Source of the DNA: an uncultured Pseudomonadales bacterium
GTDB taxonomy: Bacteria > Patescibacteriota > Microgenomatia > UBA1400 > PJMF01
NCBI GenBank assembly: GCA_964521215.1
Contig: CAZFRD010000002.1
Span: 10,798-74,797, forward strand
Length of the DNA stretch: 64,000 nt
Direction: 5' to 3'
A model generated the notes under the pieces. That model ran no database searches and was not told where the DNA came from. It worked only from the letters and a program-made list of their open reading frames with translations. Made by a program: the position numbers and the translations under genes. Positions 25,221 to 54,160 of this stretch are shown in pieces (positions within the stretch are counted from its first letter, which is position 1; every line of letters begins with the position of its first letter).

Positions 25221-26981
25221 TTACTGTTTGAACTCAATATTGAAAAAACCAAAACTACTCTGGGGGATTCTTAAATAACCCGGGGCTCTTAGATTAAAAG
25301 TGGACTTAAACTCGCTACCAGGAATATCAAGATTGCCCCGGTTGGTGCTCAGGTGCACCGATGTGGTTTGACCATTATTACTGTGACTGACGCTGACTGC
25401 CGAAATATTAGTCACCGCTCCACCTGAATTATTAGCTCGGTCGCGCAGTTCGCTCATGGAATAGGGATTGCCGCCGCCGCCGATTTGACATTGATTAATA
25501 GTCGGCGGCTGAATTCGACTGGTATCGGCACCGTTAGGATTGTTGCGCACGATCCAAGCGTTGATGATGTCGGCAAATTCTTCCTGCGAAAGCCAGGGAT
25601 GCGAGCGGCCACAGCTGTCGCCGCTCGCAAAGTAACCATTGCGATACCAAGCTTTATAAAACCAGGGGCTACTGGCTTTATTTTCCCACGCTCTGGTGGA
25701 CCAAGATCCATCGGCGGACTTATCAGTTGTATCCCAACCAGATGTATTGCTATATCCCCCATGGGTGGATGCATACTGAGTGGAAACCGGATTCCCACCA
25801 CCATCCACCAACACCCAACCTCGCGTATCATTGACTGCCCGCTCCCAATCACCACCTTTTTTTTGATTTTTAAAAACTTGACAAGCTTCGGTGGTACAAA
25901 TTGATTTGGCACCATTGCCAGTGTATTTAATGGCAAAAGTCCGTGCCGCTATCGCTTGCGCTTTGAGGGCTTCCATATGCCAACTGCCTGGCATTTCATA
26001 AATTCCTTGCAGGTATTGATCTTCAAAAGATATTGTGCCTACTCCTTGGACGCTGATCGAACCCATGGCAGAGAAATCACGTTTGAGCGTAGCATTGGGA
26101 TAATAGGCTTTGAGAATCTCTTCCGCTGACTGACCCGAATCAGCCCTGGCTTTGGCGCCATACTGACTCATACCATTACGATGAGTGTAGCCACCAAAGC
26201 TGAAGACGGCAAAAGAATTACCAGGGGCTTGGGCCTTATAGGCAATGGAGGCATTGAAATCATCTGCTAGTGGCACCTCGCCGACGGAAGTGATGAACGA
26301 CCCAGACCGAGCATTGATAATTGATTGTTGTCGTGCTGAAAGATCGGCAATTTTACTTGACAAGGTTTGTTGGTAATCTTTGGCTTTGGCAATTTCAGTC
26401 TTGAAAAAATCGGCTTGGCTATCTAGTTGTTTTTCTAAATTGGCTAAAACAACTTGGCGCTCTTCGAGCGCCTGACGATCGCTTTCTAACGCAGAGATGT
26501 CTTTGGTGATGCTACTAATTAAGCGTTGGTCTTGAGCTTGCACCGACTCACGGTAAGCTAAATCTTTGGTTAAACTGCCGACAGTGCTTTGTGACAACAT
26601 GATTAGGGGCGAAGAGACCAAACGCAGACGAATGTATTGGTCATGAACTCGTTTGGAAAGAATTTGGTATTGTAAGGCTAAATCGACTTCGCGTTTTTCG
26701 ATATCGTTGCCCACTCGGATCACTTCTTGTTTAGCTTTTTCGATGCCTGATCTGGCTGAGTTGATCCGGGATTGCAAGTTGGCCACTTCTTTTTCTAACG
26801 GCGTGGTGGCCGCGACCGAAAGATTTTTCAGCTTTTCCAACTCGTTGATCTGGTTTTGCAAGTCATCAACTGGGTCAAGGGCTCGAGCCAGATTGTTTGG
26901 CACCAATACTCCGCCTAAGACGAAAAATAACAAAAATCCGATCATTCCCATTTTTTGCAAAAACTGGCTGTATCTTTTCAT
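25221..26981 (-). CDS. SpoIID/LytB-domain protein with N-terminal signal anchor and coiled-coil region
   Basis: 586 aa. A TM segment is followed by a heptad-rich ~200 aa region, then the SpoIID/LytB signature GYTHRNGMSQYGAKARA...ILKAYYP and a C-terminal Trp/Gly-rich domain. Confidence 0.7.
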   Translation of the reverse strand: MKRYSQFLQKMGMIGFLLFFVLGGVLVPNNLARALDPVDDLQNQINELEKLKNLSVAATTPLEKEVANLQSRINSARSGIEKAKQEVIRVGNDIEKREVDLALQYQILSKRVHDQYIRLRLVSSPLIMLSQSTVGSLTKDLAYRESVQAQDQRLISSITKDISALESDRQALEERQVVLANLEKQLDSQADFFKTEIAKAKDYQQTLSSKIADLSARQQSIINARSGSFITSVGEVPLADDFNASIAYKAQAPGNSFAVFSFGGYTHRNGMSQYGAKARADSGQSAEEILKAYYPNATLKRDFSAMGSISVQGVGTISFEDQYLQGIYEMPGSWHMEALKAQAIAARTFAIKYTGNGAKSICTTEACQVFKNQKKGGDWERAVNDTRGWVLVDGGGNPVSTQYASTHGGYSNTSGWDTTDKSADGSWSTRAWENKASSPWFYKAWYRNGYFASGDSCGRSHPWLSQEEFADIINAWIVRNNPNGADTSRIQPPTINQCQIGGGGNPYSMSELRDRANNSGGAVTNISAVSVSHSNNGQTTSVHLSTNRGNLDIPGSEFKSTFNLRAPGYLRIPQSSFGFFNIEFKQ

Positions 26982-27057: not shown

Positions 27058-28290
27058 ATGCTCAAAAGTAAAAAGTGGGTCATCACTTCCCGACTTGTTT
27101 TTATTCTTTTACTTGCTTTGGTAATCTTTTTCAACCCAAAAACAGCTATGGCTTCGAGCTGCAGCAGTTACGCTCTAACCCACTCAAAATCAAGCAACTT
27201 TCCTTATGATGTTAGTTGCGCATCGATACCAACGAATGCAACTGTTACTGTTAATGCGGGTGGACCAAATAAATTTATCCCCAATGAAACCTACACCCTT
27301 TGGAGAGCAAAAAAGGCACAATCGTCTCAAGGTCAAAGTGTTCAGGTAGCATCTTCTCAAGCAACAAATGAAAATTCCATCACTTTTACACTATCTGATC
27401 CCGTTGCGTTTGAACCAGGGACATGGTTTTTGTCCATTTTTGGCCCTTCACTTGGCGATATTGGTGTAGGTTGCGGACTTTCTGGTTTTAGTCCAACTTA
27501 CAAAGTTGGTTTAAGAAGTTGGTCAGCAGAAATTTTTGCCTCCCAAACACGTGGTGGCAAAATGTGTTACGGTTTTCCCACCGGATGTCTAGAAGCCGGT
27601 ACACCAATCACACTGACTGTTGAAAACGTAAAACTCTGTGGCAAACCCTATGCAAATAAAAGAATTGACTTTTCTTCAGAAGGAAACAATGTGTCGAGAA
27701 ACACCGATACAAACGGTAATTTAACTGGTCAACCAATCGTGTTCACTTTTCAAAATGCCGGAAATTATGGATTTGTGGTTGGCCCATTTGAGTATAAATT
27801 CGACACTATACTTAGATCAAAATTTACTATTCGATCGTCTGGTCAGTGTGATACTTGTCTAACCACCAAACCTAAACCAATTGACCCCAACCAGCCTTAT
27901 CAATACAAAATTTGTGACCAGATTAATGGAGATTTGATGAGTCCAGAAGGAGGCAGTGCAAAAGATGCTTGTTTGCAGTGTGTTGGAGGTAATGAGTTGG
28001 GTCGGGAAGGCATTTGGACTGCTATTGGCTGTATCCCTCGTGATCCAGAGAAAATCGTCAAAAGCTTATTGCGACTGGGTTTGGGTATGGGAGGTGGTTT
28101 CGCCCTCATCATCATTTTGGCCTCGGGTTTTGTCCTAAGTGTTTCCCAGGGTGAACCTAATCGCATTAACGAAGCCAAGCAGTGGCTCACTTCTGCTCTA
28201 GTTGGTATGTTGTTTATTATTTTCTCGGTGACCCTACTTCACTTTATTGGCTATACTATTTTTAGAATACCTGGCTTTGGAGGACCTTAA
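27058..28290 (+). CDS. Pilin-like protein 1: about 330-aa Cys-containing secreted ectodomain fused to a C-terminal VirB2/TrbC-like two-helix pilin module
   Basis: The signal peptide is followed by the C-terminal module GFALIIILASGFVLSVSQGEPNRINEAKQWLTSALVGMLFIIF (helix, charged loop, helix), which is shared with the nine downstream paralogs. Confidence 0.55.
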   Translation: MLKSKKWVITSRLVFILLLALVIFFNPKTAMASSCSSYALTHSKSSNFPYDVSCASIPTNATVTVNAGGPNKFIPNETYTLWRAKKAQSSQGQSVQVASSQATNENSITFTLSDPVAFEPGTWFLSIFGPSLGDIGVGCGLSGFSPTYKVGLRSWSAEIFASQTRGGKMCYGFPTGCLEAGTPITLTVENVKLCGKPYANKRIDFSSEGNNVSRNTDTNGNLTGQPIVFTFQNAGNYGFVVGPFEYKFDTILRSKFTIRSSGQCDTCLTTKPKPIDPNQPYQYKICDQINGDLMSPEGGSAKDACLQCVGGNELGREGIWTAIGCIPRDPEKIVKSLLRLGLGMGGGFALIIILASGFVLSVSQGEPNRINEAKQWLTSALVGMLFIIFSVTLLHFIGYTIFRIPGFGGP

Positions 28291-28976
28291 TGATAATTGT
28301 TGGTAGAATTATTACTGCATTACTCGCCTGTTTCTTCTTATTTGTTGTCATTTCTCCCCAAGCTGCTTTCGCATCCTGTGGCAACATAAAAAACGACCCC
28401 CCAAACTGGGGTACAATTAAGTTTTGTGATTTCAATAACAATAATCAGGGAGAGGATCCAGTTGAGTTTTCTTTTGTAAGTTGTACAACTGGACAAGCCA
28501 ATGATGGACCGCTAGGAACCCGTTGTTGCGCTGACACTCCAGAATGTGGAGTCATCCCTAGCGTCACACCTACTCCTAGACCCCCAACACCCACAGGCGC
28601 TCCCACCCCCACCGGGCACGTGATCGATCCCATCAATCCGCCAACCGATGAATTTTTTGACCTGGTTGACCCGCTACAACATGGCGGGGGAAAAACGATT
28701 CTTGACGACGTAGCCTCACCTTTTGCCACTCAACTTAAAACACCAGGTGGCATCATTAGCCGGTTACTCTTCTTTGCTTTTCCCCTAGCTGGCTTGATCT
28801 TATTTGTCATGCTAGTCTGGGCCGGCTTTGAAATACTGATTGGCGCTCCAACCAAGAAATCAATCGATGCCGGCAAGCAAAGAGCCACCGCTGCCTTAGT
28901 GGGATTTTTTCTCTTATTTGCCAGTTACTGGATTTTCCAGATTATAGAAGTAGTATTCGGTGTTAAAATTTTATAA
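28290..28976 (+). CDS. VirB2/TrbC-like pilin paralog 2 (Cys-rich ectodomain, Pro/Thr linker)
   Basis: A signal peptide, a 6-Cys segment and a PTPRPPTPTGAPTPTG linker precede the module LVWAGFEILIGAPTKKSIDAGKQRATAALVGFFLLF. Confidence 0.55.
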   Translation: MIIVGRIITALLACFFLFVVISPQAAFASCGNIKNDPPNWGTIKFCDFNNNNQGEDPVEFSFVSCTTGQANDGPLGTRCCADTPECGVIPSVTPTPRPPTPTGAPTPTGHVIDPINPPTDEFFDLVDPLQHGGGKTILDDVASPFATQLKTPGGIISRLLFFAFPLAGLILFVMLVWAGFEILIGAPTKKSIDAGKQRATAALVGFFLLFASYWIFQIIEVVFGVKIL

Positions 28977-28982
28977 ACAAGT

Positions 28983-29546
28983 GTGCAAAAAATAATTAAG
29001 ATTATCATCAACTCCAGCTTACTCACCCTACTCTGTATTATTACAAGTTTATATTTTGTCAGTTCTGCTCAAGCTGCTTGTTCTGTCATTAGAGACACTG
29101 GAGCCGTATACTACTGTGACTACAACCATAATTTCCAGCCAGATCTAGGAGAAGGCTCTCATGTAGTTTGTACCAACAGCCCACCCAAATGTTGTAGTAC
29201 GCAAACAGAGTGCAACTTGCTCCCCAGTGGTTGTGCTCCCGGCTCTGGTTTCATTTCTCTGGGGGATTGTCTCAAACTATCTGATGATACAAAGATTAGT
29301 GACACCTACACCACTCCTGCTTTTCTGGTCAATCTGATTGTCCGCAACTTATTTGTAGTAGCCGGTGTAGTATTATTTTTCATGATTCTACTGGCTGGCT
29401 TAAAATTTATCACTGGTGGCAAAAAGGGCCTAGATGAAGCCAAGCAAATCATGACGGCTGCTTTAGTTGGCTTTTTACTGATGTTCTCGGCTTACTGGAT
29501 TGTCCAAATTGTTAAAATAGTGACCAAAACCGATCTGATTATATGA
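28983..29546 (+). CDS. VirB2/TrbC-like pilin paralog 3 (Cys-rich ectodomain)
   Basis: Signal peptide and 8 Cys, then the module LLAGLKFITGGKKGLDEAKQIMTAALVGFLLMF. Confidence 0.55.
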   Translation: MQKIIKIIINSSLLTLLCIITSLYFVSSAQAACSVIRDTGAVYYCDYNHNFQPDLGEGSHVVCTNSPPKCCSTQTECNLLPSGCAPGSGFISLGDCLKLSDDTKISDTYTTPAFLVNLIVRNLFVVAGVVLFFMILLAGLKFITGGKKGLDEAKQIMTAALVGFLLMFSAYWIVQIVKIVTKTDLII

Positions 29547-29968
29547 CCAAATTTTTTATTTCTATTGTTTTCGTCCTCGCACTGGCAATTATTTTCACTA
29601 GTAACGTCGGCGCGGTTGATAATCTTGATGCAACCATCGGTAAAATTGGTACCCCGCCTGGAGTAACAGAACAAATTGCAAATTCCGGTGTTGATCCAGA
29701 TGAAGTTGCCATTTTGTTTTTCCTCAGTTCCCTGATCAAGTTTGCCAATGTCATTGCTGGCATTTGGGTCGCTTTTAATGTAGTATTTGCCGCTTTTGAT
29801 TATTTGGGCGGACAAGGATCAGCCGAGGCTCACAAAAAAGTTCGCGAGAGAATCACCATGAGCGTGGTTGGACTATTATTACTAGTAGTGGCCTACGTGG
29901 CGACAGCCATGATCAGCTTACTTTTATTTGGCGATGCTAGTTATGTGCTCCAACCCAAGTTGGAATAA
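29543..29968 (+). CDS. VirB2/TrbC-like pilin paralog 4 (short, Cys-free)
   Basis: 141 aa. Signal peptide, then FAAFDYLGGQGSAEAHKKVRERITMSVVGLLLLVVAY. Confidence 0.55.
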   Translation: MTKFFISIVFVLALAIIFTSNVGAVDNLDATIGKIGTPPGVTEQIANSGVDPDEVAILFFLSSLIKFANVIAGIWVAFNVVFAAFDYLGGQGSAEAHKKVRERITMSVVGLLLLVVAYVATAMISLLLFGDASYVLQPKLE

Positions 29969-29977
29969 GACCAAACT

Positions 29978-30556
29978 ATGAAATTTACACATAAAATAGC
30001 TCTAGCCTTACTATTTACTTCTATGATTCATATCATAACTTTGGCTCAGATTTTTTTTGTACCAACAGCGCAAGCCTGGGATGGATCAAAATGCAGTTAT
30101 GTAGACCAATGTGTGGAGAATTACCGGTGTAAATGCCTCGGCGCTTGTACTGGAACTATAATCTGGACAAAAGGAGATCCGTGTGGCTCTGCTGTCATCG
30201 GAGGCATCAGACCACCTAACGGCGTAAGTGATTACAACCTCATTGCTATGCTTGGTGGGAGTGGTGACAACATTGGCATCTTTGCCTTTATTTCCGTCGG
30301 TTTGCGCTTATTCACAATTCTTTGTGGGCTGTTTATGTTTTTCAACTTTTTGTGGGCGGGCTATTCACTAATCACCAGAGCGGGAGACAGTAAAGCCTAT
30401 GCCGATATTCGAGAACGCTTACAATACGCCATGATTGGTTTAGTAGTGGTAGTGGCTGCCTATATGCTGGCTGCCATGATTGGACTCATCTTCTTTGGTG
30501 ACGCCACCTTTATTTTAAATCCAGACATCACTCAATACGGAGCAATTGCTCCTTAG
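29978..30556 (+). CDS. VirB2/TrbC-like pilin paralog 5 (Cys-rich ectodomain)
   Basis: Signal peptide and a CxC-rich segment, then LWAGYSLITRAGDSKAYADIRERLQYAMIGLVVVVAAY. Confidence 0.55.
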   Translation: MKFTHKIALALLFTSMIHIITLAQIFFVPTAQAWDGSKCSYVDQCVENYRCKCLGACTGTIIWTKGDPCGSAVIGGIRPPNGVSDYNLIAMLGGSGDNIGIFAFISVGLRLFTILCGLFMFFNFLWAGYSLITRAGDSKAYADIRERLQYAMIGLVVVVAAYMLAAMIGLIFFGDATFILNPDITQYGAIAP

Positions 30557-31037
30557 GTTAATCAAGAAAATTATGTATAATAGTCAAAAGAAAATGAAAA
30601 AAAGATTTGCTTTAAGTTTTGTTGTCGGTTTTCTAGTCTTGTCTTTTTTTATCCCCTCAAGCGTTTTGGCCCAATTTGGCGAAGGCATTGTGCCACCATT
30701 TGCTGAAGATAATAAATACATAAAAAGCATTACCAATGATCCGCTCAATGCCGAAGACGCTTTCACCACTTTTGAATTAATTGTGTCCAACGTGCTTGCC
30801 TTACTCACTGTCTTGGGCTCGCTGGTCTTTATCACCTATTTTATGCTCGGCGCAATCACCTGGATTACTTCGGGCGGTGATACCGCCAAGGTGGGTAAAG
30901 CCAGAGACCAAATGCTTCAAGGAGTGCTTGGTCTGATTGTTTTAACATTAATGTATGCCTTAATTGGCCTAGTGGGGAGTATTGTTGGCATTGATATTCT
31001 CAACCCGGCCAAAGTATTAGAAACTTTAGTACCATGA
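30546..31037 (+). CDS. VirB2/TrbC-like pilin paralog 6
   Basis: 163 aa. Signal peptide, then MLGAITWITSGGDTAKVGKARDQMLQGVLGLIVL. Confidence 0.55.
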   Translation: MLLRLIKKIMYNSQKKMKKRFALSFVVGFLVLSFFIPSSVLAQFGEGIVPPFAEDNKYIKSITNDPLNAEDAFTTFELIVSNVLALLTVLGSLVFITYFMLGAITWITSGGDTAKVGKARDQMLQGVLGLIVLTLMYALIGLVGSIVGIDILNPAKVLETLVP

Positions 31038-31393
31038 AAATCATTGAGTCCGCTCAAGCCGCTATTACTAACCCAGCCGTCGGCAATCTAGGTAACGATG
31101 CGGAAAAAGCTGCTGATGGTTCCTTGTTTCTTTCTCAACTTGTGCGCTATTGGAATAACATTATTAGTGTTGGCGCCCTGCTCTTATTACTTTACTTTAT
31201 TTGGGGCGCCCTAGTCTGGATCACCGCCAGTGGCGACAAAACCAAATTGGAAACGGCTCGCAACCGAATGTTGCAAGCCGCCATCGGCATGCTGATCCTC
31301 GTATCGTCATTTGTTATTATTGGCTTTGCGGGCAATTTGCTCTTTGGCGATGAATTTCAACTGCTTAATTTTAAGTTTTATACACCAGAATAA
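31034..31393 (+). CDS. VirB2/TrbC-like pilin paralog 7 (minimal, 119 aa)
   Basis: Core module IWGALVWITASGDKTKLETARNRMLQAAIGMLILV. Confidence 0.55.
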   Translation: MKIIESAQAAITNPAVGNLGNDAEKAADGSLFLSQLVRYWNNIISVGALLLLLYFIWGALVWITASGDKTKLETARNRMLQAAIGMLILVSSFVIIGFAGNLLFGDEFQLLNFKFYTPE

Positions 31394-31400
31394 CTTAATC

Positions 31401-31889
31401 ATGAAAATTTTTAAATTAAATCTAAGTAAGATGCTACAAATTATACTTTTTGTGTTTCTAATGCTTGTTATCAGCAATCAAGTAAGTTTTGCAGCCACAC
31501 CTCAACCCACAAACAGTAGCATCCAATTTAATATTGCGAAAGAAGCATATGATCAACAACTACCCACGGCCAATAGCTTTAATCCCAGCTCCAATGCTTT
31601 TAAGCAATTATTTGCGAATCTAATTGGCTCGATTTTATCTGTTGTGATTACTATCGGTGTCCTGATGTTGTTGCTCTACCTAGTCTGGGGCGCTTTTTCC
31701 TGGATCACGTCCGGAGGTGATAAAGGTAAAGTCGAGGAAGCCCGCAACCGCATGACCACCGCCGTGATTGGCATTATTGTACTCAGTTCCAGTATTGCCA
31801 TCTTTATGCTCGTGCAACAAATACTAGGTATCTGCGTGCTAGACTTTTGGGGCACAGCCTGCAGGACTCCAGCTGTTCCGGGTCCTTAA
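31401..31889 (+). CDS. VirB2/TrbC-like pilin paralog 8
   Basis: The start was moved to the internal ATG at 31401 (MKIFKLNL..., signal peptide) because the track ORF at 31311 overlaps the previous gene. Module VWGAFSWITSGGDKGKVEEARNRMTTAVIGIIVL. Confidence 0.55.
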   Translation: MKIFKLNLSKMLQIILFVFLMLVISNQVSFAATPQPTNSSIQFNIAKEAYDQQLPTANSFNPSSNAFKQLFANLIGSILSVVITIGVLMLLLYLVWGAFSWITSGGDKGKVEEARNRMTTAVIGIIVLSSSIAIFMLVQQILGICVLDFWGTACRTPAVPGP

Positions 31890-31899
31890 AAAGTCATTA

Positions 31900-31912
31900 T
31901 CTGGTATAATAC
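31900..31912 (+). promoter_or_regulatory. Extended -10 promoter element (TGGTATAAT) upstream of pilin paralog 9
   Basis: ctgGTATAATacc lies about 70 nt upstream of the ATG at 31982. An AAGGGA SD-like element lies 8 nt before the start codon. Confidence 0.4.
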
Positions 31913-31981
31913 CACTAGCATCTTTACAAATAAGTAAATATCGCGTTATAGTAGTAAAAGTACTTAACCAAAGGGATATAT

Positions 31982-32389
31982 ATGAAAAACACCTTGACCA
32001 AGATTGTTGCCGGCGCTGGCTCAGCGGGCACCGCTTTATTTTTGATGGCTTCCAATGCTATGGCTGCCGTATCAATTGGCACCGTTAACACTCCAGAAGG
32101 TGGCTATGCTTCAAACCTTGGTGGCGTTATTAATAGCTTGCTCACCATCGTTATGGCATTAGCTGCTCTAGCTGTGTTTATTTATCTCATCTGGGGTGCT
32201 TTTGAATGGATTACTTCCGGAGGTGATAAAGGTAAAACCGAATCAGCTCGCAATAAGATTACGGCAGCTGTAATTGGCTTAATTGTGCTCGCCGCTTCCT
32301 ATGCCATCTTAATGTTGCTCCTGCAGATTTTAGGATTCACTAGTTTAGAGGGTGCTTTTACTCAAATCAAACCTCTTAACTCCAAATAA
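31982..32389 (+). CDS. VirB2/TrbC-like pilin paralog 9
   Basis: 135 aa. Signal peptide, then IWGAFEWITSGGDKGKTESARNKITAAVIGLIVL. Confidence 0.55.
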   Translation: MKNTLTKIVAGAGSAGTALFLMASNAMAAVSIGTVNTPEGGYASNLGGVINSLLTIVMALAALAVFIYLIWGAFEWITSGGDKGKTESARNKITAAVIGLIVLAASYAILMLLLQILGFTSLEGAFTQIKPLNSK

Positions 32390-32412
32390 ATACTATCAAG
32401 ATAGTAATTTTA

Positions 32413-32439
32413 ACAGCCCGGCGGATGCCGGGCTGTTTT
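32413..32439 (+). terminator. Rho-independent terminator after pilin paralog 9
   Basis: A 9-bp GC-rich stem (CAGCCCGGC), GGAT loop and complementary arm (GCCGGGCTG), followed by TTTTG. Confidence 0.7.
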
Positions 32440-32441
32440 GT

Positions 32442-32489
32442 AGTAGTACCAATGTCTGCTTCGACAAGCTCAGCCTGACATTGGTACTA
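32442..32489. repeat. Long hairpin (14-bp perfect stem, 20-nt loop)
   Basis: GTAGTACCAATGTC ... GACATTGGTACTAC, located immediately after the terminator. Confidence 0.6.
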
Positions 32490-32495
32490 CACTAG

Positions 32496-32645
32496 TGTCA
32501 CCCCGAGCCTGTCGAGGGGTGTCATACTGAGCCCGTCGAAGCATGTCACACTGAGCCCGTCGAAGTGTGAGCCCGTCGAAGCATGTCACTCTGAGCCTGA
32601 CGAAGAGTGTCACTCTGAGGGGTGTCACTCTGAGCCTGTCGAAGA
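32496..32645. repeat. Imperfect tandem direct repeats, about 24-nt unit (TGTCACNCTGAGCCYGTCGAAGNN), about 6 copies
   Basis: Visible as gtcaccccgagcctgtcgagggg / tgtcatactgagcccgtcgaagca / tgtcacactgagcccgtcgaagtg / (tgagcccgtcgaagca) / tgtcactctgagcctgacgaagag / (tgtcactctgagggg) / tgtcactctgagcctgtcgaagag. The array sits between pilin paralogs 9 and 10 and runs into the start of paralog 10. Confidence 0.7.
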
Positions 32646-33107
32646 GTGACCCCACCATGTAGTATACTTACCAGTATCATGAATTCGCTCAGGCATCGTT
32701 TCGTCATCCCGCCGTTACTCATCACGTTTTTGATTTTCAGCTTAATTCTTCCCCCTCAGGCCCAAGCCCAAACCGTCGAATGGTCTGGCGTTTGCATGGC
32801 TGGCTCGTCTGGCGGGGTCCCCACTATTCAGGGTCTTGAGTGCTTAATCGCCAATGTCTTTACCGTTATTATTACCCTTATCGGTCTGGGTGGGTTTGTG
32901 ATGTTTATCATCGGTGCATTCTTATGGATGACCGCCGGTTCTAACCCCAAAAACATCGATTCAGCCAAAAAAACTTTCACCTACGCCGTGCTCGGTATGG
33001 TCTTAGCTCTCAGCGCCTTTATTATCATTAACTTGATTGCCGATTTTACCGGCGTGAGTGTAATTAAGACTTTTAGAATTCCAACTTCTTCAACAGACTG
33101 GAATTAA
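32646..33107 (+). CDS. VirB2/TrbC-like pilin paralog 10 (GTG start)
   Basis: Signal peptide ...PPQAQAQ and 2 Cys, then IGAFLWMTAGSNPKNIDSAKKTFTYAVLGMVLAL. Confidence 0.5.
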   Translation: MTPPCSILTSIMNSLRHRFVIPPLLITFLIFSLILPPQAQAQTVEWSGVCMAGSSGGVPTIQGLECLIANVFTVIITLIGLGGFVMFIIGAFLWMTAGSNPKNIDSAKKTFTYAVLGMVLALSAFIIINLIADFTGVSVIKTFRIPTSSTDWN

Positions 33108-33142
33108 TCAGGAAAACCCCAACCAAGCTGAGTAAAAGGCTA

Positions 33143-33148
33143 TATAAT
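33143..33148 (+). promoter_or_regulatory. -10 hexamer TATAAT 7 nt upstream of the ATG at 33156 (predicted leaderless or very short leader)
   Basis: ggcTATATAATagaaccaATG. There is no SD between the -10 element and the start codon. Confidence 0.4.
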
Positions 33149-33155
33149 AGAACCA

Positions 33156-36100
33156 ATGTCTCGCCTACGCTCGATTAGCTTGGTTATGTTGGTGCTGTTA
33201 AATTTTTTCATTTTTTTTCTTAACCCTCAGTCCGCTAAAGCAGCTGAAAATAAATGTGGCGTCAATGTCGGACCATACTACAATCAAGTTTCTCAAGTTA
33301 AGTCGCTGACAAAAAATGGTGGCTGGATCGTAGTACTTGGATCACTAGGTCAGTGTGCAGATTATAGTTCTGTTTTTGGGCAGGGCTTAAACGTGGTACT
33401 TCGTGCCTATAACGAAGGTAAGCTGTTTGATGAACCTCAGGCAGATGCTTGGGTTGCTACCCTCCATCAACTCGATACCAAGGGACAAAAAGTGTATTTT
33501 ATGCCTTGGAATGAACCAAATCATGACAATGAAGGTGGTAACAGCACTGCCGGTGCAACGGTAAAAAGATATACCGATTACTTAACAGCACAACTTCGAG
33601 CAGCAGGTCTGCTTGGGACTAAAGTAGAAATACTTTCACCCATGGTTGATAAATTAAATCCCTCATTTGGTGGTCAATTTTTTACTAACCCCGGAGGTAT
33701 CTCAGGTTTTTATAATGGATTTATTGGCAGTTCAATCAATGAATACGACCATGCAAATGGAGATACTTCATACAGCAGTGCTTGCACTGCCGCACCACCA
33801 GCAAATAACTGTATGTATGATACCTTGGGCATTCCTCCACCATTCTATGCACTAGAAGCAGGTGTTGCTGGAACTGGGGAACCTCCTTTATACAGAGACA
33901 ATCAAATTGCTCTAATGTTAAACACCTCATGGTCACGCAAATGGCAAACCGATACTAATTTTGAAATGTTTGCAGTATTTTCCTACGATCCACATAGATC
34001 AGGTGATTGGGATATATACACTGCCCCTCAAACCAAAACTTTTTATTCTAATTCTTGCACTGTGGGCTCTGTGCAGAGCAGCACTTCGGTTGATGAAAAT
34101 AAGTTTACAAATTGGTATAACCCAAAGCAGAGTCAGTTAGTTGCTTGCGCCAGTGGTTGCGGTTTTGCTCCCAGTTCTCACCCGGAGCTCTGTAATGCAG
34201 CAGGAAAAAATGAGAACAATTTCGAGGGCTATGATACATCTCTTTACGACGACTACGACACTGTGCAAGATCAATTTTATATTCACCCCATCAAAGGACT
34301 CAATCGAGCTCAAGATGGAAGTCAGGGTGCGTTTGACGCCAATCTCAAAACTATCCGTGACGATTTGATCACTCAGGGATATGAGTCACGTTGCGCCACT
34401 CCGGGTTTCAACATAGAACTAACCCAAGATGGTAAAGACTGGATGGCAGATTACGTGGAACAAAACCCTCCGGGCGCTGTCTTTGGTGGACATGAAAATT
34501 ACATAATTCGTACCAGAGTGGCCGGCGATCCACCGGGAATCGGTGATTACGTTCGTTCCTGGTTGGCAGTGGATTATCGTGAGGTACAAACACCAGTTTT
34601 TCGGGATGTTTCGGACAAGCGCTTTTTGATGACTTCGCTGGAAGAATTTTTTGGCTTCAAAGACACAGTCGTCCAAGAACAATCACCAGCCGAACTCAAC
34701 TCCGCCGCAATCAACTCTCTGCTGACTAACCAACAGCGTTGCGAAGCCTCGGTCAGAATTTTGCTCAGACAAGAAGAAATGTGTAATAAGTTGGCCGACC
34801 CCAATGCTTGTGCTCTCTACTCTCGGCCCGTTCCGCAAACCAATTTCACCATCAAAACCATGTTGGAAGCTTATAAAGCTTTGGTAGCTGCGCCTCCCTC
34901 CACCATCAAACCCAATCCTTTGCCCCCCTACACCGATCCTGCCACCATTAAAGCCATTTGCTCTGAACTAGTTGGGTCAGATTGGAACGAAACAGCTAGA
35001 GAAGGCTTGCTTTACACCCCGCTCACTATTGATCGTGCCTACCGACTAGCTTTCTTAGTGACCACCATCGAGGTGTTCCATGCGACTTATAAAAGTATGT
35101 TTAATCTTTACATCCATCCCAATGAGGGACCAGCAGAAGATGGTCCAAGTAAACCAGACGATGCCGTGTTAGTAAATGCTTTTAAAGTTCCTGATATTCT
35201 CACTACCACGCAGTTGGAAAGTGCTGGCTCGGGTGGAAGTGGCAACACAGCCTGGACGGATTCGAGTAAGCTGACGCGTAACTCGCTGCTAACCAAGAAA
35301 AACCAGGATGTGCTGACAAAGACTGTTAATGCAAAAGTTGCCGAACTAAAAAAAGCAGCCGAACATTATGATACGAACAAGCAAGAGTCTGGAGCAGACG
35401 AAATTTACTGTTTGGAGGGTGTTTCTAATCGAGGCATTGGCCCCCCCGAATGCAAGGATGAATTAGGCAAAGCTGTAATTGACATTATCAATGCTCAAGC
35501 AAGCAATCGCGTTACCACCAAGTATGATAATCAAATCGATGCTGAGTGTCCTGAACTAATCAAGGAGCCAGCCAGTAGTATTCTGGATTTCGGTTCATTC
35601 GGGACGGTTGAGACAATCAAAAACCCACCAGCCGAACTACTTTATACTCAAGAATTTGGTGCCAAACTTTTGCATAATATCTTCGAGGTTCCCGAAAAAA
35701 ATCAGGATCCTGCGGGATTACTTGACAGCTCTCATCAAATAGAGCCCAAGGGCGACAGTCACCCTTCTTTTGCCGAAACCTGGAAACCGGGAGATCCGCG
35801 TGCAGAGACTAATGATATAGCCCCAGGTGAACCAAATAGCGAGTGGGGACTCAAATCGCTGTTCCATGTCACAGATAGAACATATCCCAAATTTCCCTAC
35901 AACGCCTGTTGTGACGTGAGCGAAGTGAAACACTTTTTGGTCTATCCCATGGGCTATGACATGCAAAAAGTTCAGGAGGTTTTGGCTGGTACATTTTTTA
36001 CTACCGAACAAATCGCCAGTTTAACCACAGCAGCAGAAGAGTTTGACCGGATTCAACTAAGTGGGGATCAAATAGATTTCACTGGGGGAACTAGAGAGCA

Positions 36101-36980
36101 CACTTTTGCCGATATCGTGAAAGGTGAACCAATTAGTGGCAATAAACTCAACTGGCCTGATGGTGTTGATTTTATCTCGGTCAATGATCCAGTCAAAGAT
36201 TCGGTATTTGAAATTGATCGTTGTCAAAAAGTCTATGAAACTATTTGTGATGACATCGACCCTATCACTGGAGTGAGAACAAATTGTCATATCGAACACG
36301 TGGGGTGGGAACTACCCTGTGACAGAACTTTTGGTTGGGCTATCAAACAAAAAGGCTCGGCTCTGACAGCCGGATTACTTGGGGGACGATTTGGCTTTTG
36401 GTTACGCGAAATTCAAAAGGGGCTCAATACCAAAGCTGGCACCGCTCGCGAATATCTTGATACCTGCAAAACAGTGGAACAATTCCTCACTGGCCATTGT
36501 GGGCAACCAGTTGACCCCGTCCCCACGCCCGACCCACCCGATCCCAACTGTACAGAACTGAGTTGTACCCCACCCACGCCAGTGCCACCCACAGCTACGC
36601 CAATCCCTCCAATGCCGACTGGTAGTGGAGGTTGCACCGATCCGACTCAAGATGCACTTATTTTTGAAACATATGTAAATGAAAACCGAGAATGGAAAGT
36701 AAAATTAACTTGCCCAAGTTGTACTGGAGGTTGGGGAGATATTGCAACTAATATCACTCTACCAACTGGAGAATCTTGGAATTGGGCGGGAAATTATCTT
36801 CCAGTAGGTGGCTATCTAGAGCTACCATGCGGAGGTGACCCCCCCTGTGTTGGACACGGTAGCAAAGTACCAGATGACTTTCATGGCCAATGGTGTGTTA
36901 GTGCAGTTGTTACCAGCAGACCAGCGGGCAATCAGTGTCAAGGCACCCTTTACTTCTATGCATGCACAACAGTGCCGTAG
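33156..36980 (+). CDS. Large secreted Cys-rich protein (1274 aa) with possible GH-A-clan-like N-terminal domain and C-terminal Pro/Thr-rich region; candidate adhesin or enzyme
   Basis: N-terminal signal peptide (LNPQSAKA|AE). YFMPWNEPNHDNEGG resembles the GH5/GH-A 'NEP' acid/base motif, which is weak evidence. The protein has more than 40 Cys. The linker PVDPVPTPDPPDPNC..PPTPVPPTATPIPPMP lies near the C-terminus. There is no LPXTG motif and no TM segment after the signal peptide. Confidence 0.45.
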   Translation: MSRLRSISLVMLVLLNFFIFFLNPQSAKAAENKCGVNVGPYYNQVSQVKSLTKNGGWIVVLGSLGQCADYSSVFGQGLNVVLRAYNEGKLFDEPQADAWVATLHQLDTKGQKVYFMPWNEPNHDNEGGNSTAGATVKRYTDYLTAQLRAAGLLGTKVEILSPMVDKLNPSFGGQFFTNPGGISGFYNGFIGSSINEYDHANGDTSYSSACTAAPPANNCMYDTLGIPPPFYALEAGVAGTGEPPLYRDNQIALMLNTSWSRKWQTDTNFEMFAVFSYDPHRSGDWDIYTAPQTKTFYSNSCTVGSVQSSTSVDENKFTNWYNPKQSQLVACASGCGFAPSSHPELCNAAGKNENNFEGYDTSLYDDYDTVQDQFYIHPIKGLNRAQDGSQGAFDANLKTIRDDLITQGYESRCATPGFNIELTQDGKDWMADYVEQNPPGAVFGGHENYIIRTRVAGDPPGIGDYVRSWLAVDYREVQTPVFRDVSDKRFLMTSLEEFFGFKDTVVQEQSPAELNSAAINSLLTNQQRCEASVRILLRQEEMCNKLADPNACALYSRPVPQTNFTIKTMLEAYKALVAAPPSTIKPNPLPPYTDPATIKAICSELVGSDWNETAREGLLYTPLTIDRAYRLAFLVTTIEVFHATYKSMFNLYIHPNEGPAEDGPSKPDDAVLVNAFKVPDILTTTQLESAGSGGSGNTAWTDSSKLTRNSLLTKKNQDVLTKTVNAKVAELKKAAEHYDTNKQESGADEIYCLEGVSNRGIGPPECKDELGKAVIDIINAQASNRVTTKYDNQIDAECPELIKEPASSILDFGSFGTVETIKNPPAELLYTQEFGAKLLHNIFEVPEKNQDPAGLLDSSHQIEPKGDSHPSFAETWKPGDPRAETNDIAPGEPNSEWGLKSLFHVTDRTYPKFPYNACCDVSEVKHFLVYPMGYDMQKVQEVLAGTFFTTEQIASLTTAAEEFDRIQLSGDQIDFTGGTREHTFADIVKGEPISGNKLNWPDGVDFISVNDPVKDSVFEIDRCQKVYETICDDIDPITGVRTNCHIEHVGWELPCDRTFGWAIKQKGSALTAGLLGGRFGFWLREIQKGLNTKAGTAREYLDTCKTVEQFLTGHCGQPVDPVPTPDPPDPNCTELSCTPPTPVPPTATPIPPMPTGSGGCTDPTQDALIFETYVNENREWKVKLTCPSCTGGWGDIATNITLPTGESWNWAGNYLPVGGYLELPCGGDPPCVGHGSKVPDDFHGQWCVSAVVTSRPAGNQCQGTLYFYACTTVP

Positions 36981-37013
36981 TTGACTTTGGCATCTCAACC
37001 TTTTTAAAAATCG

Positions 37014-37874: not shown

Positions 37875-37995
37875 ATCACTCCTTTTTCAAATGAACATTA
37901 ATATGCTAGGGCAGGGAAACAACCTCATCATATCACCATCTCTGACTATCAAACAAGCACAAATTCACTCGATTGCTCATCCGAAGATTAATCTA

Positions 37996-38001
37996 TATAA
38001 T
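37996..38001 (+). promoter_or_regulatory. -10 hexamer TATAAT 10 nt upstream of the ATG at 38012
   Basis: atcTATATAATagacaccgctATG. Confidence 0.4.
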
Positions 38002-38011
38002 AGACACCGCT

Positions 38012-39760
38012 ATGAAATTAACCGCTCAGGTGGTCAAGTTGTGTTTGGTTGTTTTAGTGAGCGGTTTGCTTTTTACTTCTACCCTTGCTTTTGCCGGAGT
38101 AATTAGCGCACAAGATTCCAGTTCCAGTACCCCCAGTGAAGTCGACATCACTGCAGATGAATTAGCCGACTACCGTCTAGCCACAGCCGATTGTTCCACG
38201 CCATCGCTAGAATGTTTGGTCCGTAACGTTTCACGTTTTACTGCTATTGAGTGGGTGCAGGATATTATTGGCAAAGATAATAAGATCTGTATCGAGGAAG
38301 AAGGATGCACGGATCTAAGCAGTAATAATTCCGGCACCAATGTGGCAGATACTGGAGCCATCGGCAGTTTGTCTAACTTAATTACTGCCATGTATACCCA
38401 CCCCGTGGCAGACACCCAGACGTATGTGGCGTACGTGCTCAAATCTGCTCATATTACCGCTCCCGCCTACGCCCAGGGACTTGGGTTCTCTTCGCTTGAT
38501 CCAGTGCTCAATTTATGGACCACCTTTCGCAATATTGCCTACATGTTTTTTGTGCTGATTTTTGTAGTGGTGGGCTTCCTAATTATGTTCCGCCAAAAAG
38601 TCGGCCAGACGGCCATTACTGCCCAACAAGCGATTCCGCAAATCATTATTTCTCTAATTCTGGTTACTTTTTCCTACGCCATTGCTGGTTTGTTGATTGA
38701 TTTGATGTATGTGTTGATGGCACTAATCATTGGTGTTTTCTCTTCATTTTTTAGCGATGATGTTTTTGGCTATAACATTTTTCAGTTGGGAGGCAAGTTG
38801 TTCGAGGGTGCTGCAGATTTTTATCGCAACAAGGATTTTATTTCTGGCTTTTTAACAGGTCTTGATATCAATGGGGCTGCCAACCAAGTAGTCAGTTTAA
38901 TAAGCAGTTTGACGCTGATGATTATTCTAACGATAGCGATGTTGATTGGAATTGTGAGGTTGTTTTTCGAGCTACTAAAGTCATATGCCACTATTGTCAT
39001 CTCCGTAGTAGTAGCACCACTATTGCTGATGATGGGAGCTATTCCTGGTAGAAGCAATGCTTTTGGTTCATGGATCAAAACCCTAGTTGGCCACCTCTCA
39101 CCGTTCCCCGTAATCTTGATGGTGTTGGTGATGTTTTATGCTTTTACAGAAGGCGCAGTTAATGCTAGTAGTGGCGGTTTTATGCCACCATTTTTGCTCA
39201 ATGCCGGTAATGGTATTGGTGAAAGTATTATTGCGCTCATGAGTTTGGCCATTATTTTGGCTCTACCAGATATTGTGATAAAAATCAGAGATGGCATAGC
39301 GCCAAAGGATGCTTTTGGAGAACTGATAACTAACAAGGGCTGGAGTAACTTCAAAGATGGTTGGACGGGCAAGACCCCTTGGGGTAAAATGCCATTGGGA
39401 ATGAGTGGAAGGAATATTTCTAAGTTGGGTGTGGGTGCCACTACGGCTGGGGTAGGCGCAATTGGTGGTGCAGGAATTGGATTTGTTAAAGGAGGGGGAA
39501 CCATGAAAGAACGTCTCGGAAGAGCTGGTCAGTATGCTGGAGCTGGTGCGATTGGTGGCGCCATAGCACCTATCGCAATTCCCAAAGTGCCGAGATTGGT
39601 AAAAGGAATTGTAAAAGAAACTATGGGTAGTGCAGTTAGCTACACCGTTGGAGATGTTGTTGAAGAAAAGTTAGATCAGTTCAAAGCATACAGAGAAGAC
39701 AAAAAAGCTCAAAAGGGTGGAAATCGGAAGAGCGACGCTGCAGGTCTAGACAGAAACTAA
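38012..39760 (+). CDS. VirB6/TrbL-like polytopic membrane protein (T4SS channel component candidate)
   Basis: The start was moved to the ATG at 38012 (MKLTAQVV..., signal peptide). A ~170-aa Cys-containing extracytoplasmic domain is followed by at least 6 TM helices and a Gly-rich charged C-terminal tail. The topology and size are typical of VirB6/TrbL/PrgH-like proteins, but there is no sequence-motif proof. Confidence 0.45.
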   Translation: MKLTAQVVKLCLVVLVSGLLFTSTLAFAGVISAQDSSSSTPSEVDITADELADYRLATADCSTPSLECLVRNVSRFTAIEWVQDIIGKDNKICIEEEGCTDLSSNNSGTNVADTGAIGSLSNLITAMYTHPVADTQTYVAYVLKSAHITAPAYAQGLGFSSLDPVLNLWTTFRNIAYMFFVLIFVVVGFLIMFRQKVGQTAITAQQAIPQIIISLILVTFSYAIAGLLIDLMYVLMALIIGVFSSFFSDDVFGYNIFQLGGKLFEGAADFYRNKDFISGFLTGLDINGAANQVVSLISSLTLMIILTIAMLIGIVRLFFELLKSYATIVISVVVAPLLLMMGAIPGRSNAFGSWIKTLVGHLSPFPVILMVLVMFYAFTEGAVNASSGGFMPPFLLNAGNGIGESIIALMSLAIILALPDIVIKIRDGIAPKDAFGELITNKGWSNFKDGWTGKTPWGKMPLGMSGRNISKLGVGATTAGVGAIGGAGIGFVKGGGTMKERLGRAGQYAGAGAIGGAIAPIAIPKVPRLVKGIVKETMGSAVSYTVGDVVEEKLDQFKAYREDKKAQKGGNRKSDAAGLDRN

Positions 39761-39880
39761 TACTATAATTCTTGCACAATCCGCACAAGTTTTCTATTTT
39801 CTAATAACTTAACTACCAAGTAAGAAATTAACGCTTTCCAATCGTTCGAACCATCAACGTGAGTAATCTCAAATTTACTC

Positions 39881-43093: not shown

Positions 43094-43172
43094 TTACAAT
43101 ATTATATCAAGAAATGGCAAGAGCTAACAGACCTCACTTGTTGAATTGATTGTTATGATGTAGTCTGAATAC

Positions 43173-51255: not shown

Positions 51256-51306
51256 ACTCTACCCATTTTCTAAGTACCCTTGGTTATAGTATGCTAGCAT
51301 AGCCAA

Positions 51307-52179: not shown

Positions 52180-52180
52180 T

Positions 52181-54079: not shown

Positions 54080-54160
54080 GGCTATTTATCAGTGTATTTT
54101 TCCCCTTGCAGAGTGTGGGAAACTTTGTGTATAACTTCCAAGTATATTTGGGGTGGAAAT

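What the first reader, a model, noticed from the sequence alone, without database searches (positions are those of the whole stretch)
33156..36980. 1274-aa secreted Cys-rich giant with possible glycoside-hydrolase-like N-terminal domain
A cleavable signal peptide precedes a Cys-rich sequence with no further TM segments. It has a WNEPN motif reminiscent of the GH5/clan GH-A acid/base site and a Pro/Thr-rich low-complexity linker near the C-terminus. The gene sits directly after the pilin array. It could be a tip adhesin or an enzyme that remodels the host envelope during epibiotic attachment.
Basis: partly seen in the sequence, partly recalled or inferred. Interest (0 to 1): 0.6.

Follow-up and report, generated by a model that had tools for sequence, protein, structure and literature searches.

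The report
Secreted glycosidase giant beside T4SS pilins
This is a real 1274-residue exported protein of an ultra-small (Patescibacteria/Microgenomatia) bacterium, and it joins a sugar-cutting enzyme head, a large conserved body of unknown fold and a swappable tail; it always follows the pilin genes of the type IV secretion system these bacteria are thought to use on their hosts.

Summary
The ORF 33156-36980 (+) encodes 1274 aa with a Sec-type signal peptide, no other hydrophobic segment, 34 Cys, an invariant PWNEPN motif and a Pro/Thr linker.

- **Head.** The GH idea passes its own refutation test. Residues 25-360 model as a (β/α)8 barrel (pLDDT 93.8). N119-E120 follows β4 and invariant E234 lies in β7. 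The best solved-structure match is GH128, clan GH-A (Foldseek E 2.4e-5).
- **Body.** Residues 356-1137 form a conserved Cys-rich core with no known fold.
- **Tail.** It is a small β-sandwich. A 97%-identical strain carries a different tail, with breakpoints in the Pro/Thr linker and just past the stop codon.
- **Relatives.** Only 236 representatives were found in 1.84 billion proteins. Named source records are mostly Microgenomatia-type Patescibacteria. Relatives mix at least four GH-A-like heads and several tails, including SLT lysozyme-like domains, on the same core.
- **Context.** The "pilins" are VirB2-like T4SS pilins. The order array-then-giant recurs in 12 of 16 informative loci, inside a monoderm-type T4SS locus next to dnaA.

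Best reading: a T4SS-associated glycan-cutting surface enzyme with a specificity tail. Substrate, location and any tip-adhesin role are untested.

The parts
33156..36980 (+). Whole gene: 1274-aa exported modular protein (stop codon included)
   Evidence: ORF list and translation. It has 70 homologues, and the best is 98% identical.
33156..33242 (+). Sec-type signal peptide, residues 1-29, with predicted AKA|A cleavage
   Evidence: This is the only hydrophobic segment of the protein. Homologue alignments begin at about residue 24-30. Cleavage is inferred, not predicted by a dedicated tool.
33243..34220 (+). Head 'N_A', residues 30-355: (β/α)8 barrel, GH clan-A-like glycosidase domain with a small Cys-containing C-terminal extension
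   Evidence: AF2 model with pLDDT 93.8 and pTM 0.92, eight β/α units. Best Foldseek PDB match is GH128 6uaq at E 2.4e-5, followed by weaker GH10, GH53, GH164 and GH158 matches. Invariant residues cluster at the C-terminal ends of β3-β8. hhalign to the alternative head N_B gives probability 96% and E 2.8e-9.
33504..33521 (+). PWNEPN motif, residues 117-122; N119-E120 is the predicted acid/base pair after β4
   Evidence: P117, N119, E120 and P121 are invariant. β4 is model residues 89-92, i.e. protein residues 113-116. The motif aligns with PNEPD of head N_B.
33855..33857 (+). E234, predicted catalytic nucleophile in β7 (YALEAGVAG)
   Evidence: It is invariant. It lies in model strand 206-214. 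It aligns with ITETG of head N_B.
34221..36566 (+). Conserved Cys-rich core, residues 356-1137; mixed α/β with no recognisable fold or family
   Evidence: 111 of 193 collected relatives carry it over nearly its full length. AF2 gives pLDDT 80-95 in many blocks and 73 overall. No PDB or BFVD fold match reaches E 1e-3. No Pfam or PDB profile hit was found.
36567..36641 (+). Pro/Thr-rich disordered linker, residues about 1138-1162; 5' recombination breakpoint of the tail cassette
   Evidence: Composition. pLDDT 31-45. Identity to L024 ends at about 36610-36618.
36642..36977 (+). C-terminal Cys-rich β-sandwich tail, residues about 1163-1274; swappable module
   Evidence: Seven β-strands are modelled. 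The only fold matches are Ig/FN3/PKD-like sandwiches of about 115 residues. At least four tail types combine freely with the heads.
36619..37006 (+). Cassette replaced in a 97%-identical strain (L024)
   Evidence: blastn shows 97% identity over 32583-36618 and 37007-39372 and no match between them. The alignment shows both breakpoints.
27058..33107 (+). Array of ten VirB2-like T4SS pilin genes directly upstream, same strand
   Evidence: PF18895 hits. A local pilin HMM finds equivalent arrays ending just before the giant in 12 of 16 informative loci.
25221..26981 (-). SpoIID-domain protein, divergent from the pilin array, conserved neighbour
   Evidence: PF08486 at E 4.7e-17. The same position is seen in L001, L003 and L004.
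37973..39760 (+). 595-aa protein with about 8 predicted TM segments, a VirB6-like candidate
   Evidence: Hydrophobicity scan. No family hit. The VirB6 assignment is inferred from topology only.
44916..49046 (+). 1376-aa membrane protein ending in a Peptidase_M23 domain, the candidate VirB1/PrgK-type wall hydrolase of the locus
   Evidence: PF01551 at E 5e-15. TM segments at residues 868-1026. It is conserved in L001, L003 and L024.
50053..54079 (+). PrgI/VirB3-like, TrsD-like and VirB4 ATPase genes, followed by dnaA (54092-55627)
   Evidence: PF12666, PF19044 and PF03135. NF041427 TrsD. dnaA and dnaN.

Best explanation
The gene encodes a Sec-exported, soluble, disulfide-rich modular protein belonging to the chromosomal monoderm-type T4SS locus of a Microgenomatia (Woesebacteria-like) patescibacterium.

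It has three modules:
1. An N-terminal (β/α)8 glycoside-hydrolase head of the clan GH-A type. It probably works by retaining double displacement, with E120 as acid/base and E234 as nucleophile. It represents a sequence family not yet filed, structurally nearest GH128.
2. A conserved core of about 780 residues with no known fold. I infer that it is the scaffold tying the protein to the pilus or T4SS surface apparatus.
3. A Pro/Thr linker carrying a small Cys-rich β-sandwich tail. The tail is exchanged as a cassette between near-identical strains, and I infer that it is a ligand- or glycan-binding specificity module.

Proposed mechanism: the protein is co-expressed with the VirB2-like pilins. 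At the cell surface it binds and locally cleaves a non-peptidoglycan glycan layer, most likely of the partner or host cell and less likely of the bacterium itself. This lets the pilus or T4SS reach its target.

Shown computationally: the fold, the invariant catalytic-type residues, the modular shuffling and the conserved synteny.
Inferred: catalysis, substrate, surface or pilus association, and action on the host.
For: - **Fold.** The head model has pLDDT 93.8 with eight β/α units. Its best PDB matches are GH128 (E 2.4e-5 and 1.2e-4), followed by other clan GH-A families.
- **Catalytic-type residues.** R83, W99, P117, N119, E120, P121, S161, P162, Y197, D198, E234, G236, Y277 and W285 are invariant. 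They lie at or just beyond the C-terminal ends of β3-β8 of the model, except W99 in the helix after β3.
- **Related heads.** hhalign of N_A against the alternative head N_B gives probability 96% and E 2.8e-9, aligning both putative catalytic Glu residues.
- **Enzymes on the same core.** Other core-bearing relatives carry heads or tails that match Pfam families. These are Glyco_hydro_cc/GH128 (P0109, 27.7 bits against a gathering score of 21), Cellulase/GH5 (2 proteins), SLT_3 and SLT lysozyme-like tails, and an Exo_endo_phos domain.
- **Cassette swap.** Window and L024 are 97% identical on both sides of 36619-37006, and the tails there are unrelated.
- **Free combination.** Heads N_A and N_B combine freely with tail types q, P0001, P0002 and SLT.
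- **Synteny.** A pilin array ends immediately upstream of the giant in L001/L002, L003, L004, L005, L006, L008, L009, L010, L011, L017, L019, L020 and L021, down to about 30% head identity.
- **Locus content.** SpoIID, a VirB6-like protein, an M23 giant, PrgI, TrsD, VirB4 and dnaA are present. This matches the published Patescibacteria T4SS. [quoted passage not shown] PMC10633639 reports that the T4SS and pilin array are essential in Southlakia.
Against: - No sequence match to any GH family (Pfam, NCBIfam, PDB). dbCAN could not be run.
DSSP places E234 in the middle of a long β7 strand rather than at its end.
- TM-scores to GH128 are moderate (0.50 normalised to the query, 0.67 to the target).
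- Clan GH-A has no known peptidoglycan hydrolases, and the substrate is unknown.
- The protein has no anchor: no TM segment, and no sortase or S-layer motif was recognised. Surface retention is therefore pure inference.
- Four distant head-bearing loci (L014, L015, L018, L022) lack the pilin array.
- Promoter and terminator scans were uninformative, so co-transcription rests only on the 48-bp gap and shared strand.
Confidence: 0.55

Rival explanations
1. It is the locus's own-envelope 'hole puncher', a functional VirB1 analogue. The head would cut a glycan of the patescibacterium's own wall or surface layer so that the pilus or T4SS channel can assemble.
For: - Some homologues end in SLT_3 or SLT lytic-transglycosylase-like domains.
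- PMC12102498 finds few VirB1 homologues near virB4 and suggests other glycosidases may substitute.
- The gene lies inside the T4SS locus.
Against: - Peptidoglycan-directed functions are already encoded in the locus by SpoIID and the M23 giant.
- This protein itself has no SLT domain.
- GH-A enzymes are not known muramidases (CAZy knowledge, from memory).
- Rapid exchange of heads and tails between close strains fits a variable external target better than the cell's own conserved wall.
Confidence: 0.2
2. It is a pilus-tip or pilus-associated adhesin (VirB5-like in role). The barrel would act mainly as a lectin, and the tail and head would bind host glycans without needing catalysis.
For: - The gene sits last after the pilin genes.
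- The tail is a variable β-sandwich cassette.
- No adhesin has been identified for the Patescibacteria T4SS (PMC12102498).
Against: - Both catalytic-type Glu residues and the surrounding active-face residues are invariant across 28-69% identity. This argues for retained chemistry.
- There is no sequence or fold similarity to VirB5, TraC or PrgB.
- There is no evidence of any interaction with pilins.
Confidence: 0.12
3. It is a free secreted nutritional glycosidase that degrades environmental polysaccharide for fermentation, and it is only coincidentally next to the T4SS genes.
For: - Patescibacteria encode many secreted glycoside hydrolases (PMC11665869).
- It has a Sec signal and no anchor.
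- Four distant head homologues lie outside pilin arrays.
Against: - The array-then-giant order is kept in 12 of 16 informative loci down to about 30% identity.
- The 780-residue core and the cassette tail are unnecessary for a simple scavenging enzyme.
- Lysozyme-like and nuclease/phosphatase-type domains are fused to the same core in relatives.
Confidence: 0.08
4. It is a polymorphic toxin: a conserved delivery body with a variable C-terminal toxin domain.
For: - The C-terminal domain after the linker is replaced between 97%-identical strains.
- One relative carries an Exo_endo_phos domain.
Against: - The swapped segment ends about 26 nt after the stop codon.
- The downstream gene is conserved at 97%, so no cognate immunity gene travels with the tail.
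- The tails are roughly 95-115-residue Cys-rich β-sandwiches with Ig/FN3-like fold matches, not known toxin folds.
Confidence: 0.05

Closest known systems
GH128 endo-β-1,3-glucanases (clan GH-A; e.g. Amycolatopsis AmGH128_I, PDB 6uaq; Pfam PF11790 Glyco_hydro_cc)
   Same: - Both have a (β/α)8 barrel, and GH128 is the best structural match.
- Both have an Asn-Glu after β4 and a Glu in β7.
- A relative built on the same core (P0109) has a head that passes the PF11790 threshold.
   Different: - There is no detectable sequence match of this head to PF11790 or to any PDB chain.
- Identity in the structural alignment is 17% and TM-scores are 0.50/0.67.
- The head is about 90 residues longer and carries conserved Cys residues.
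- It is fused to a 900-residue non-catalytic body.
- The substrate is unknown.
VirB1/PrgK/TcpG-type cell-wall hydrolases of type IV secretion systems
   Same: - Both are envelope-glycan-cutting enzymes encoded within a T4SS locus.
- Some family members carry SLT or SLT_3 domains.
   Different: - This protein has no SLT, CHAP or M23 domain and no membrane anchor.
- Its catalytic fold is a GH-A barrel, not lysozyme-like.
- It follows a VirB2-like pilin array, which monoderm T4SSs normally lack (PMC12102498, PMC12857230).
Phage tailspike / receptor-binding depolymerases (functional analogy only)
   Same: Both combine a modular enzyme with a conserved body and exchangeable specificity modules. Cassette exchange between close strains is seen here.
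   Different: - No fold or sequence similarity was found (BFVD search).
- There is no β-helix.
- The gene lies on a chromosomal T4SS locus next to dnaA, not in a phage.
VirB5/TraC pilus-tip proteins of Gram-negative T4SSs
   Same: Both are encoded with the VirB2 pilins and exported by Sec. A role at the pilus is possible.
   Different: - This protein is about six times larger and carries an enzyme head.
- No similarity was detected.

Membership tests
Glycoside hydrolase clan GH-A | (β/α)8 TIM-barrel catalytic domain | tested here: met
   The AF2 model has pLDDT 93.8 and eight alternating β/α units. Top fold matches are GH-A enzymes.
Glycoside hydrolase clan GH-A | Acid/base Glu preceded by Asn at the C-terminal end of β4 | tested here: met
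   N119-E120 is invariant. It lies 3-4 residues after β4, which is residues 113-116.
Glycoside hydrolase clan GH-A | Nucleophile Glu at the C-terminal end of β7, about 5.5 Å from the acid/base | tested here: inconclusive
   E234 is invariant and lies in β7. It aligns with the ETG Glu of head N_B.
Glycoside hydrolase clan GH-A | Retaining glycosidase activity | not testable with these tools
   This needs biochemistry.
GH128 (Pfam PF11790 Glyco_hydro_cc) | Sequence match to the family model above its gathering score | tested here: not met
   There is no Pfam hit at E up to 1. hhalign of N_A against the PF11790-positive head group is not significant (E 0.33). N_B heads give only sub-threshold hits (E 0.011 and 0.069).
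GH5 (Pfam PF00150 Cellulase) | Sequence match to the family model | tested here: not met
   There is no hit for this protein. Two distant core-bearing relatives do match.
T4SS VirB1-type peptidoglycan hydrolase | SLT, CHAP or M23 catalytic domain | tested here: not met
   None is present in this protein. SLT_3 or SLT is present in some homologues.
T4SS VirB1-type peptidoglycan hydrolase | [quoted passage not shown] | tested here: met
   The gene lies between the pilin array and the VirB6-like, M23, PrgI, TrsD and VirB4 genes.
VirB5-type pilus-tip protein / PrgB-type adhesin | Sequence or fold similarity to VirB5/TraC or PrgB; LPXTG anchor for PrgB | tested here: not met
   No Pfam or PDB hits were found. 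The C-terminus ...YACTTVP has no sorting motif.
Polymorphic toxin | Variable C-terminal domain exchanged together with a downstream immunity gene | tested here: not met
   The swap ends about 26 nt after the stop codon. The downstream convergent gene is 97% conserved.
Patescibacteria monoderm-type (MPF-FATA-like) T4SS locus with VirB2 arrays (PMC12102498) | VirB4 with PrgI/TrsD, a VirB2-like pilin array, and proximity to dnaA | tested here: met
   The same layout is seen in L001, L003 and L004, and partly in L005.

The most novel reading that the evidence does not exclude
The conserved novel-fold core is a docking module that mounts exchangeable enzyme heads and exchangeable binding tails on the VirB2-like pilus of the Patescibacteria T4SS. 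The heads include GH-A barrels of at least four types, sometimes joined by lysozyme-like or EEP domains. The result would be a depolymerase-tipped conjugative-type pilus that drills through the host's glycan coat, with head and tail cassettes setting host range. This would be a new class of T4SS accessory and a direct handle on how Microgenomatia choose and breach hosts.
Probability: 0.2. Interest if true: 0.8.

Novelty: new variant of a known kind. Interest (0 to 1): 0.55.

Why it matters
The Patescibacteria T4SS and its pilin array are essential for epibiotic growth in the one species tested. Their role is called 'completely unknown' (PMC11665869), and no adhesin or clear VirB1 has been found for them (PMC12102498).

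This family offers a concrete, testable candidate for the host-contact step in Microgenomatia. It is a secreted enzyme whose catalytic head and binding tail are shuffled between close strains, while a large unknown-fold body and the position after the pilins stay fixed.

Tail and head type could serve as markers for host range in uncultured lineages.

Tried and rejected
**Searches that found nothing**
- Pfam, NCBIfam and PDB sequence searches of the whole protein.
- Profile searches of three family alignments against PDB. These gave only noise: Kelch-like designed repeats, a coiled coil and lysostaphin at E 1.3.
- Foldseek of the 919-residue C-terminal model against PDB and BFVD. Nothing reached E 1e-3; only generic Ig/FN3/PKD sandwiches of about 115 residues appeared.

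**Unavailable resources**

**Weak or uninformative results**
- hhalign of the untrimmed alignment A1 against the P0005 head was weak (probability 13%). Trimmed alignments were needed.
- hhalign of N_A, and of N_B, against the PF11790-positive head group was not significant.
- Ten N_B heads gave only sub-threshold PF11790 hints and no Cellulase hit.
- Promoter and terminator scans were at chance level.

**Ideas rejected**
- Silent tail or head cassettes elsewhere in the window: none found by tblastn.
- Polymorphic toxin: no immunity gene swaps with the tail.
- Type IV pilus (T4P) context: the pilins are VirB2-like.


Full report
**1. The observation**

- The ORF 33156-36980 (+) exists and encodes 1274 aa.
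- The N-terminus is a typical Sec signal (MSRLRS-hydrophobic-AKA|AENK). A hydrophobicity scan finds no other membrane-like segment.
- There are 34 cysteines (2.7%), a WNEPN motif at residues 118-122, and a Pro/Thr linker at about residues 1138-1162.
- The gene starts 48 bp after the last of ten same-strand small genes. These are VirB2-like type IV secretion pilins (PF18895), not type IV pilins.

**2. Genomic setting**

The window is a patescibacterial chromosome around oriC. The order of genes is:
- recF, then a SpoIID-domain gene (divergent from the array);
- the pilin array, then the target;
- a 286-aa DHH-like gene (convergent with the target);
- a protein of about 8 TM segments, a VirB6-like candidate;
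- a 1070-aa protein with no predicted signal peptide or TM segment;
- a 1376-aa membrane protein ending in Peptidase_M23;
- PrgI (VirB3-like), a TrsD-like protein and VirB4;
- dnaA, dnaN and yidC.

This is the monoderm-type (MPF-FATA-like) T4SS described for Patescibacteria. That system has VirB2 arrays of 2-11 genes, is especially common in Microgenomatia, and often lies near dnaA (PMC12102498). In Southlakia epibionticum the T4SS and its pilin array are essential (PMC10633639). The role of the system is unknown (PMC11665869, PMC12857230).

**3. The head**

- Whole-protein searches of Pfam, NCBIfam and PDB sequences return nothing.
- An AlphaFold2 model of residues 25-360, built on 54 aligned sequences (the query segment plus 53 homologues), is highly confident (pLDDT 93.8, pTM 0.92). 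It shows eight β/α units.
- Foldseek against the PDB puts GH128 endo-β-1,3-glucanases first (6uaq at E 2.4e-5; 6ufl at 1.2e-4). Weaker matches follow to GH10, GH53, GH164 and GH158, all clan GH-A by my knowledge of CAZy. Some non-GH-A barrels also appear.
- The invariant residues are R83, W99, P117, N119, E120, P121, S161, P162, Y197, D198, E234, G236, Y277 and W285. They sit at or just beyond the C-terminal ends of β3-β8, except W99, which lies in the helix after β3. This is the canonical active face.
- N119-E120 follows β4 and E234 lies in β7. This is the clan GH-A signature.
- Caveat: I could not access coordinates, so the Glu-Glu distance and disulfides are untested.
- By sequence the head belongs to no filed family, so I call it GH-A-like and nearest to GH128, not a GH128 member.

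**4. The rest of the protein**

- Residues 356-1274 model at moderate confidence (pLDDT 73, pTM 0.71). Many blocks reach 80-95, and the linker is disordered.
- No solved or viral predicted structure matches at E below 1e-3. The only recurrent matches are Ig/FN3/PKD-like sandwiches of about 115 residues. These fit the seven-strand C-terminal domain; I did not see which query residues Foldseek aligned.
- Profile searches against PDB sequences are empty.
- The 780-residue core is therefore a conserved domain of unknown fold and function.

**5. Family and modularity**

- An exhaustive HMMER search of 1.84 billion representatives finds only 236 relatives at E up to 1e-3.
- Of the source records that carry a name, most are Woesebacteria, Pacebacteria, Shapirobacteria, Beckwithbacteria, WWE3 or Microgenomates. 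Four genome records are labelled Pseudomonadales or Gammaproteobacteria. One of these has the isolate name HK-STAS-PATE-17, and I take these labels to be mis-assignments.
- Among 193 collected proteins:

| Architecture | Proteins |
|---|---|
| Head N_A without the core | 82 |
| Head N_A + core | 19 |
| Second head N_B + core | 36 |
| Core with another head or none | 56 |

- The 'other' heads have their own NE...E motifs, for example 'VANEI...YIGE' and 'GHNEPN...VTESG'.
- N_A and N_B are distant homologues. hhalign gives probability 96% and E 2.8e-9, with NEP and the nucleophile Glu aligned.
- Pfam recognises domains in some relatives. These are Glyco_hydro_cc/GH128 in the head of P0109 (above threshold), Cellulase/GH5 in two proteins, SLT_3 or SLT lysozyme-like domains at the C-terminus of several, and an Exo_endo_phos domain in one.
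- The constant element is therefore the core. Enzymes and tails are plugged onto it.

**6. Cassette exchange**

- At least four tail types exist: the query type, the P0001 type, the P0002 type and the SLT type. They combine freely with N_A and N_B.
- A contig from another sample (L024) gives the clearest case. It is 97% identical in DNA over 32583-36618 and again over 37007-39372.
- The 388 bp between those stretches do not align. That segment covers the last ~120 codons of the gene and about 26 nt of spacer.
- Breakpoints lie in the shared Pro/Thr-linker sequence and just past the stop codon.
- The downstream gene does not change, which argues against a toxin-immunity cassette.
- No silent copies of other tails or heads occur in the window.

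**7. Synteny**

- I built a pilin HMM from the window's array and searched the fetched loci.
- A same-strand array of 2-11 pilin genes ends within a few hundred bases upstream of the head-bearing giant in L001/L002, L003 (=L016), L004 (=L007), L005, L006, L008, L009, L011, L017, L019, L020 and L021. These are 12 of 16 distinct loci with at least 1 kb of upstream sequence.
- L010 has only about 970 bp of upstream sequence, so it is outside the 16. It also shows a pilin gene ending about 150 bp upstream.
- The association extends to relatives with only about 30% head identity.
- Four distant loci (L014, L015, L018, L022) lack the array.

**8. Mechanism**

- Most likely (about 0.55): a T4SS-associated, exported glycan-cutting enzyme. 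I infer that its core ties it to the pilus or surface apparatus and that its tail supplies target specificity. It would clear a non-peptidoglycan glycan layer, probably on the partner cell.
- Rivals are an own-envelope VirB1 analogue (0.2), a non-catalytic tip adhesin (0.12), a free nutritional glycosidase (0.08) and a polymorphic toxin (0.05).
- Peptidoglycan-directed activities are already present in the locus (SpoIID, M23). The fast exchange of head and tail also favours a variable external target. None of this was tested directly.

**9. Novelty and score**

- The locus type and the pilin arrays are published.
- I found no description of this giant family in the searchable literature.
- I rate it a new variant of a known kind, namely a T4SS-linked envelope hydrolase with a GH-A enzyme head. 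Interest is 0.55.
- If the core proves to dock enzymes on the pilus, the interest would be much higher.

Noticed in passing
window 39373-44185: This is a second hypervariable block in the T4SS locus. Between the window and the 97%-identical contig L024 there is no blastn match across the 3' part of the ~8-TM VirB6-like gene, the 1070-aa minus-strand protein (no predicted signal peptide or TM segment) and the 351-aa protein. L024 nevertheless has genes of similar length and order (1065, 344 and 160 aa).
   Followed up: partly
window 27058-30556: Four of the first five pilin-like genes (410, 228, 187 and 192 aa) carry Cys-rich N-terminal ectodomains (12, 7, 9 and 7 Cys). These are fused to the VirB2-like C-terminal two-TM hairpin. 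They are candidate partners for the Cys-rich giant.
   Followed up: no
window 25221-26981 (-): A SpoIID-domain protein with an N-terminal membrane or signal segment lies divergently next to the pilin array. It keeps that position in L001, L003 and L004. It may be a peptidoglycan-processing partner of the T4SS.
   Followed up: partly
window 44916-49046: This is a 1376-aa protein with about four TM segments (residues 868-1026) and a C-terminal Peptidase_M23 domain. Equivalent giants in other loci carry CHAP instead (L004, L005). It is probably the PrgK/VirB1-type hydrolase of the system.
   Followed up: partly
window 51307-52179: A 290-aa ORF just upstream of virB4 matches TrsD and the N-terminal part of VirB4 (NCBIfam NF041427 and NF045975, both below their cut-offs). 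This agrees with the TrsD homologues reported as the commonest T4SS component near virB4 in Patescibacteria (PMC12102498).
   Followed up: no
P0085 (relative, not in window): Its N-terminal ~490 residues precede the N_B head and core. By eye they look like an endonuclease/exonuclease/phosphatase domain, but this was not scanned against Pfam. P0083 has a Pfam-confirmed Exo_endo_phos domain C-terminal to the core. The core therefore also carries non-glycosidase enzymes.
   Followed up: no
L014, L015, L018, L022: Distant N_A-like head proteins (26-31% identity), in WWE3 and other Patescibacteria, sit without an upstream pilin array. The head family therefore also exists outside the T4SS context.
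   Followed up: partly
L004 10001-14001: In the 82 'head N_A without core' proteins, the head is followed by unrelated sequence. In L004 an overlapping 511-aa same-strand ORF also follows. These proteins still come after a pilin array, so a different body may replace the core.
   Followed up: no
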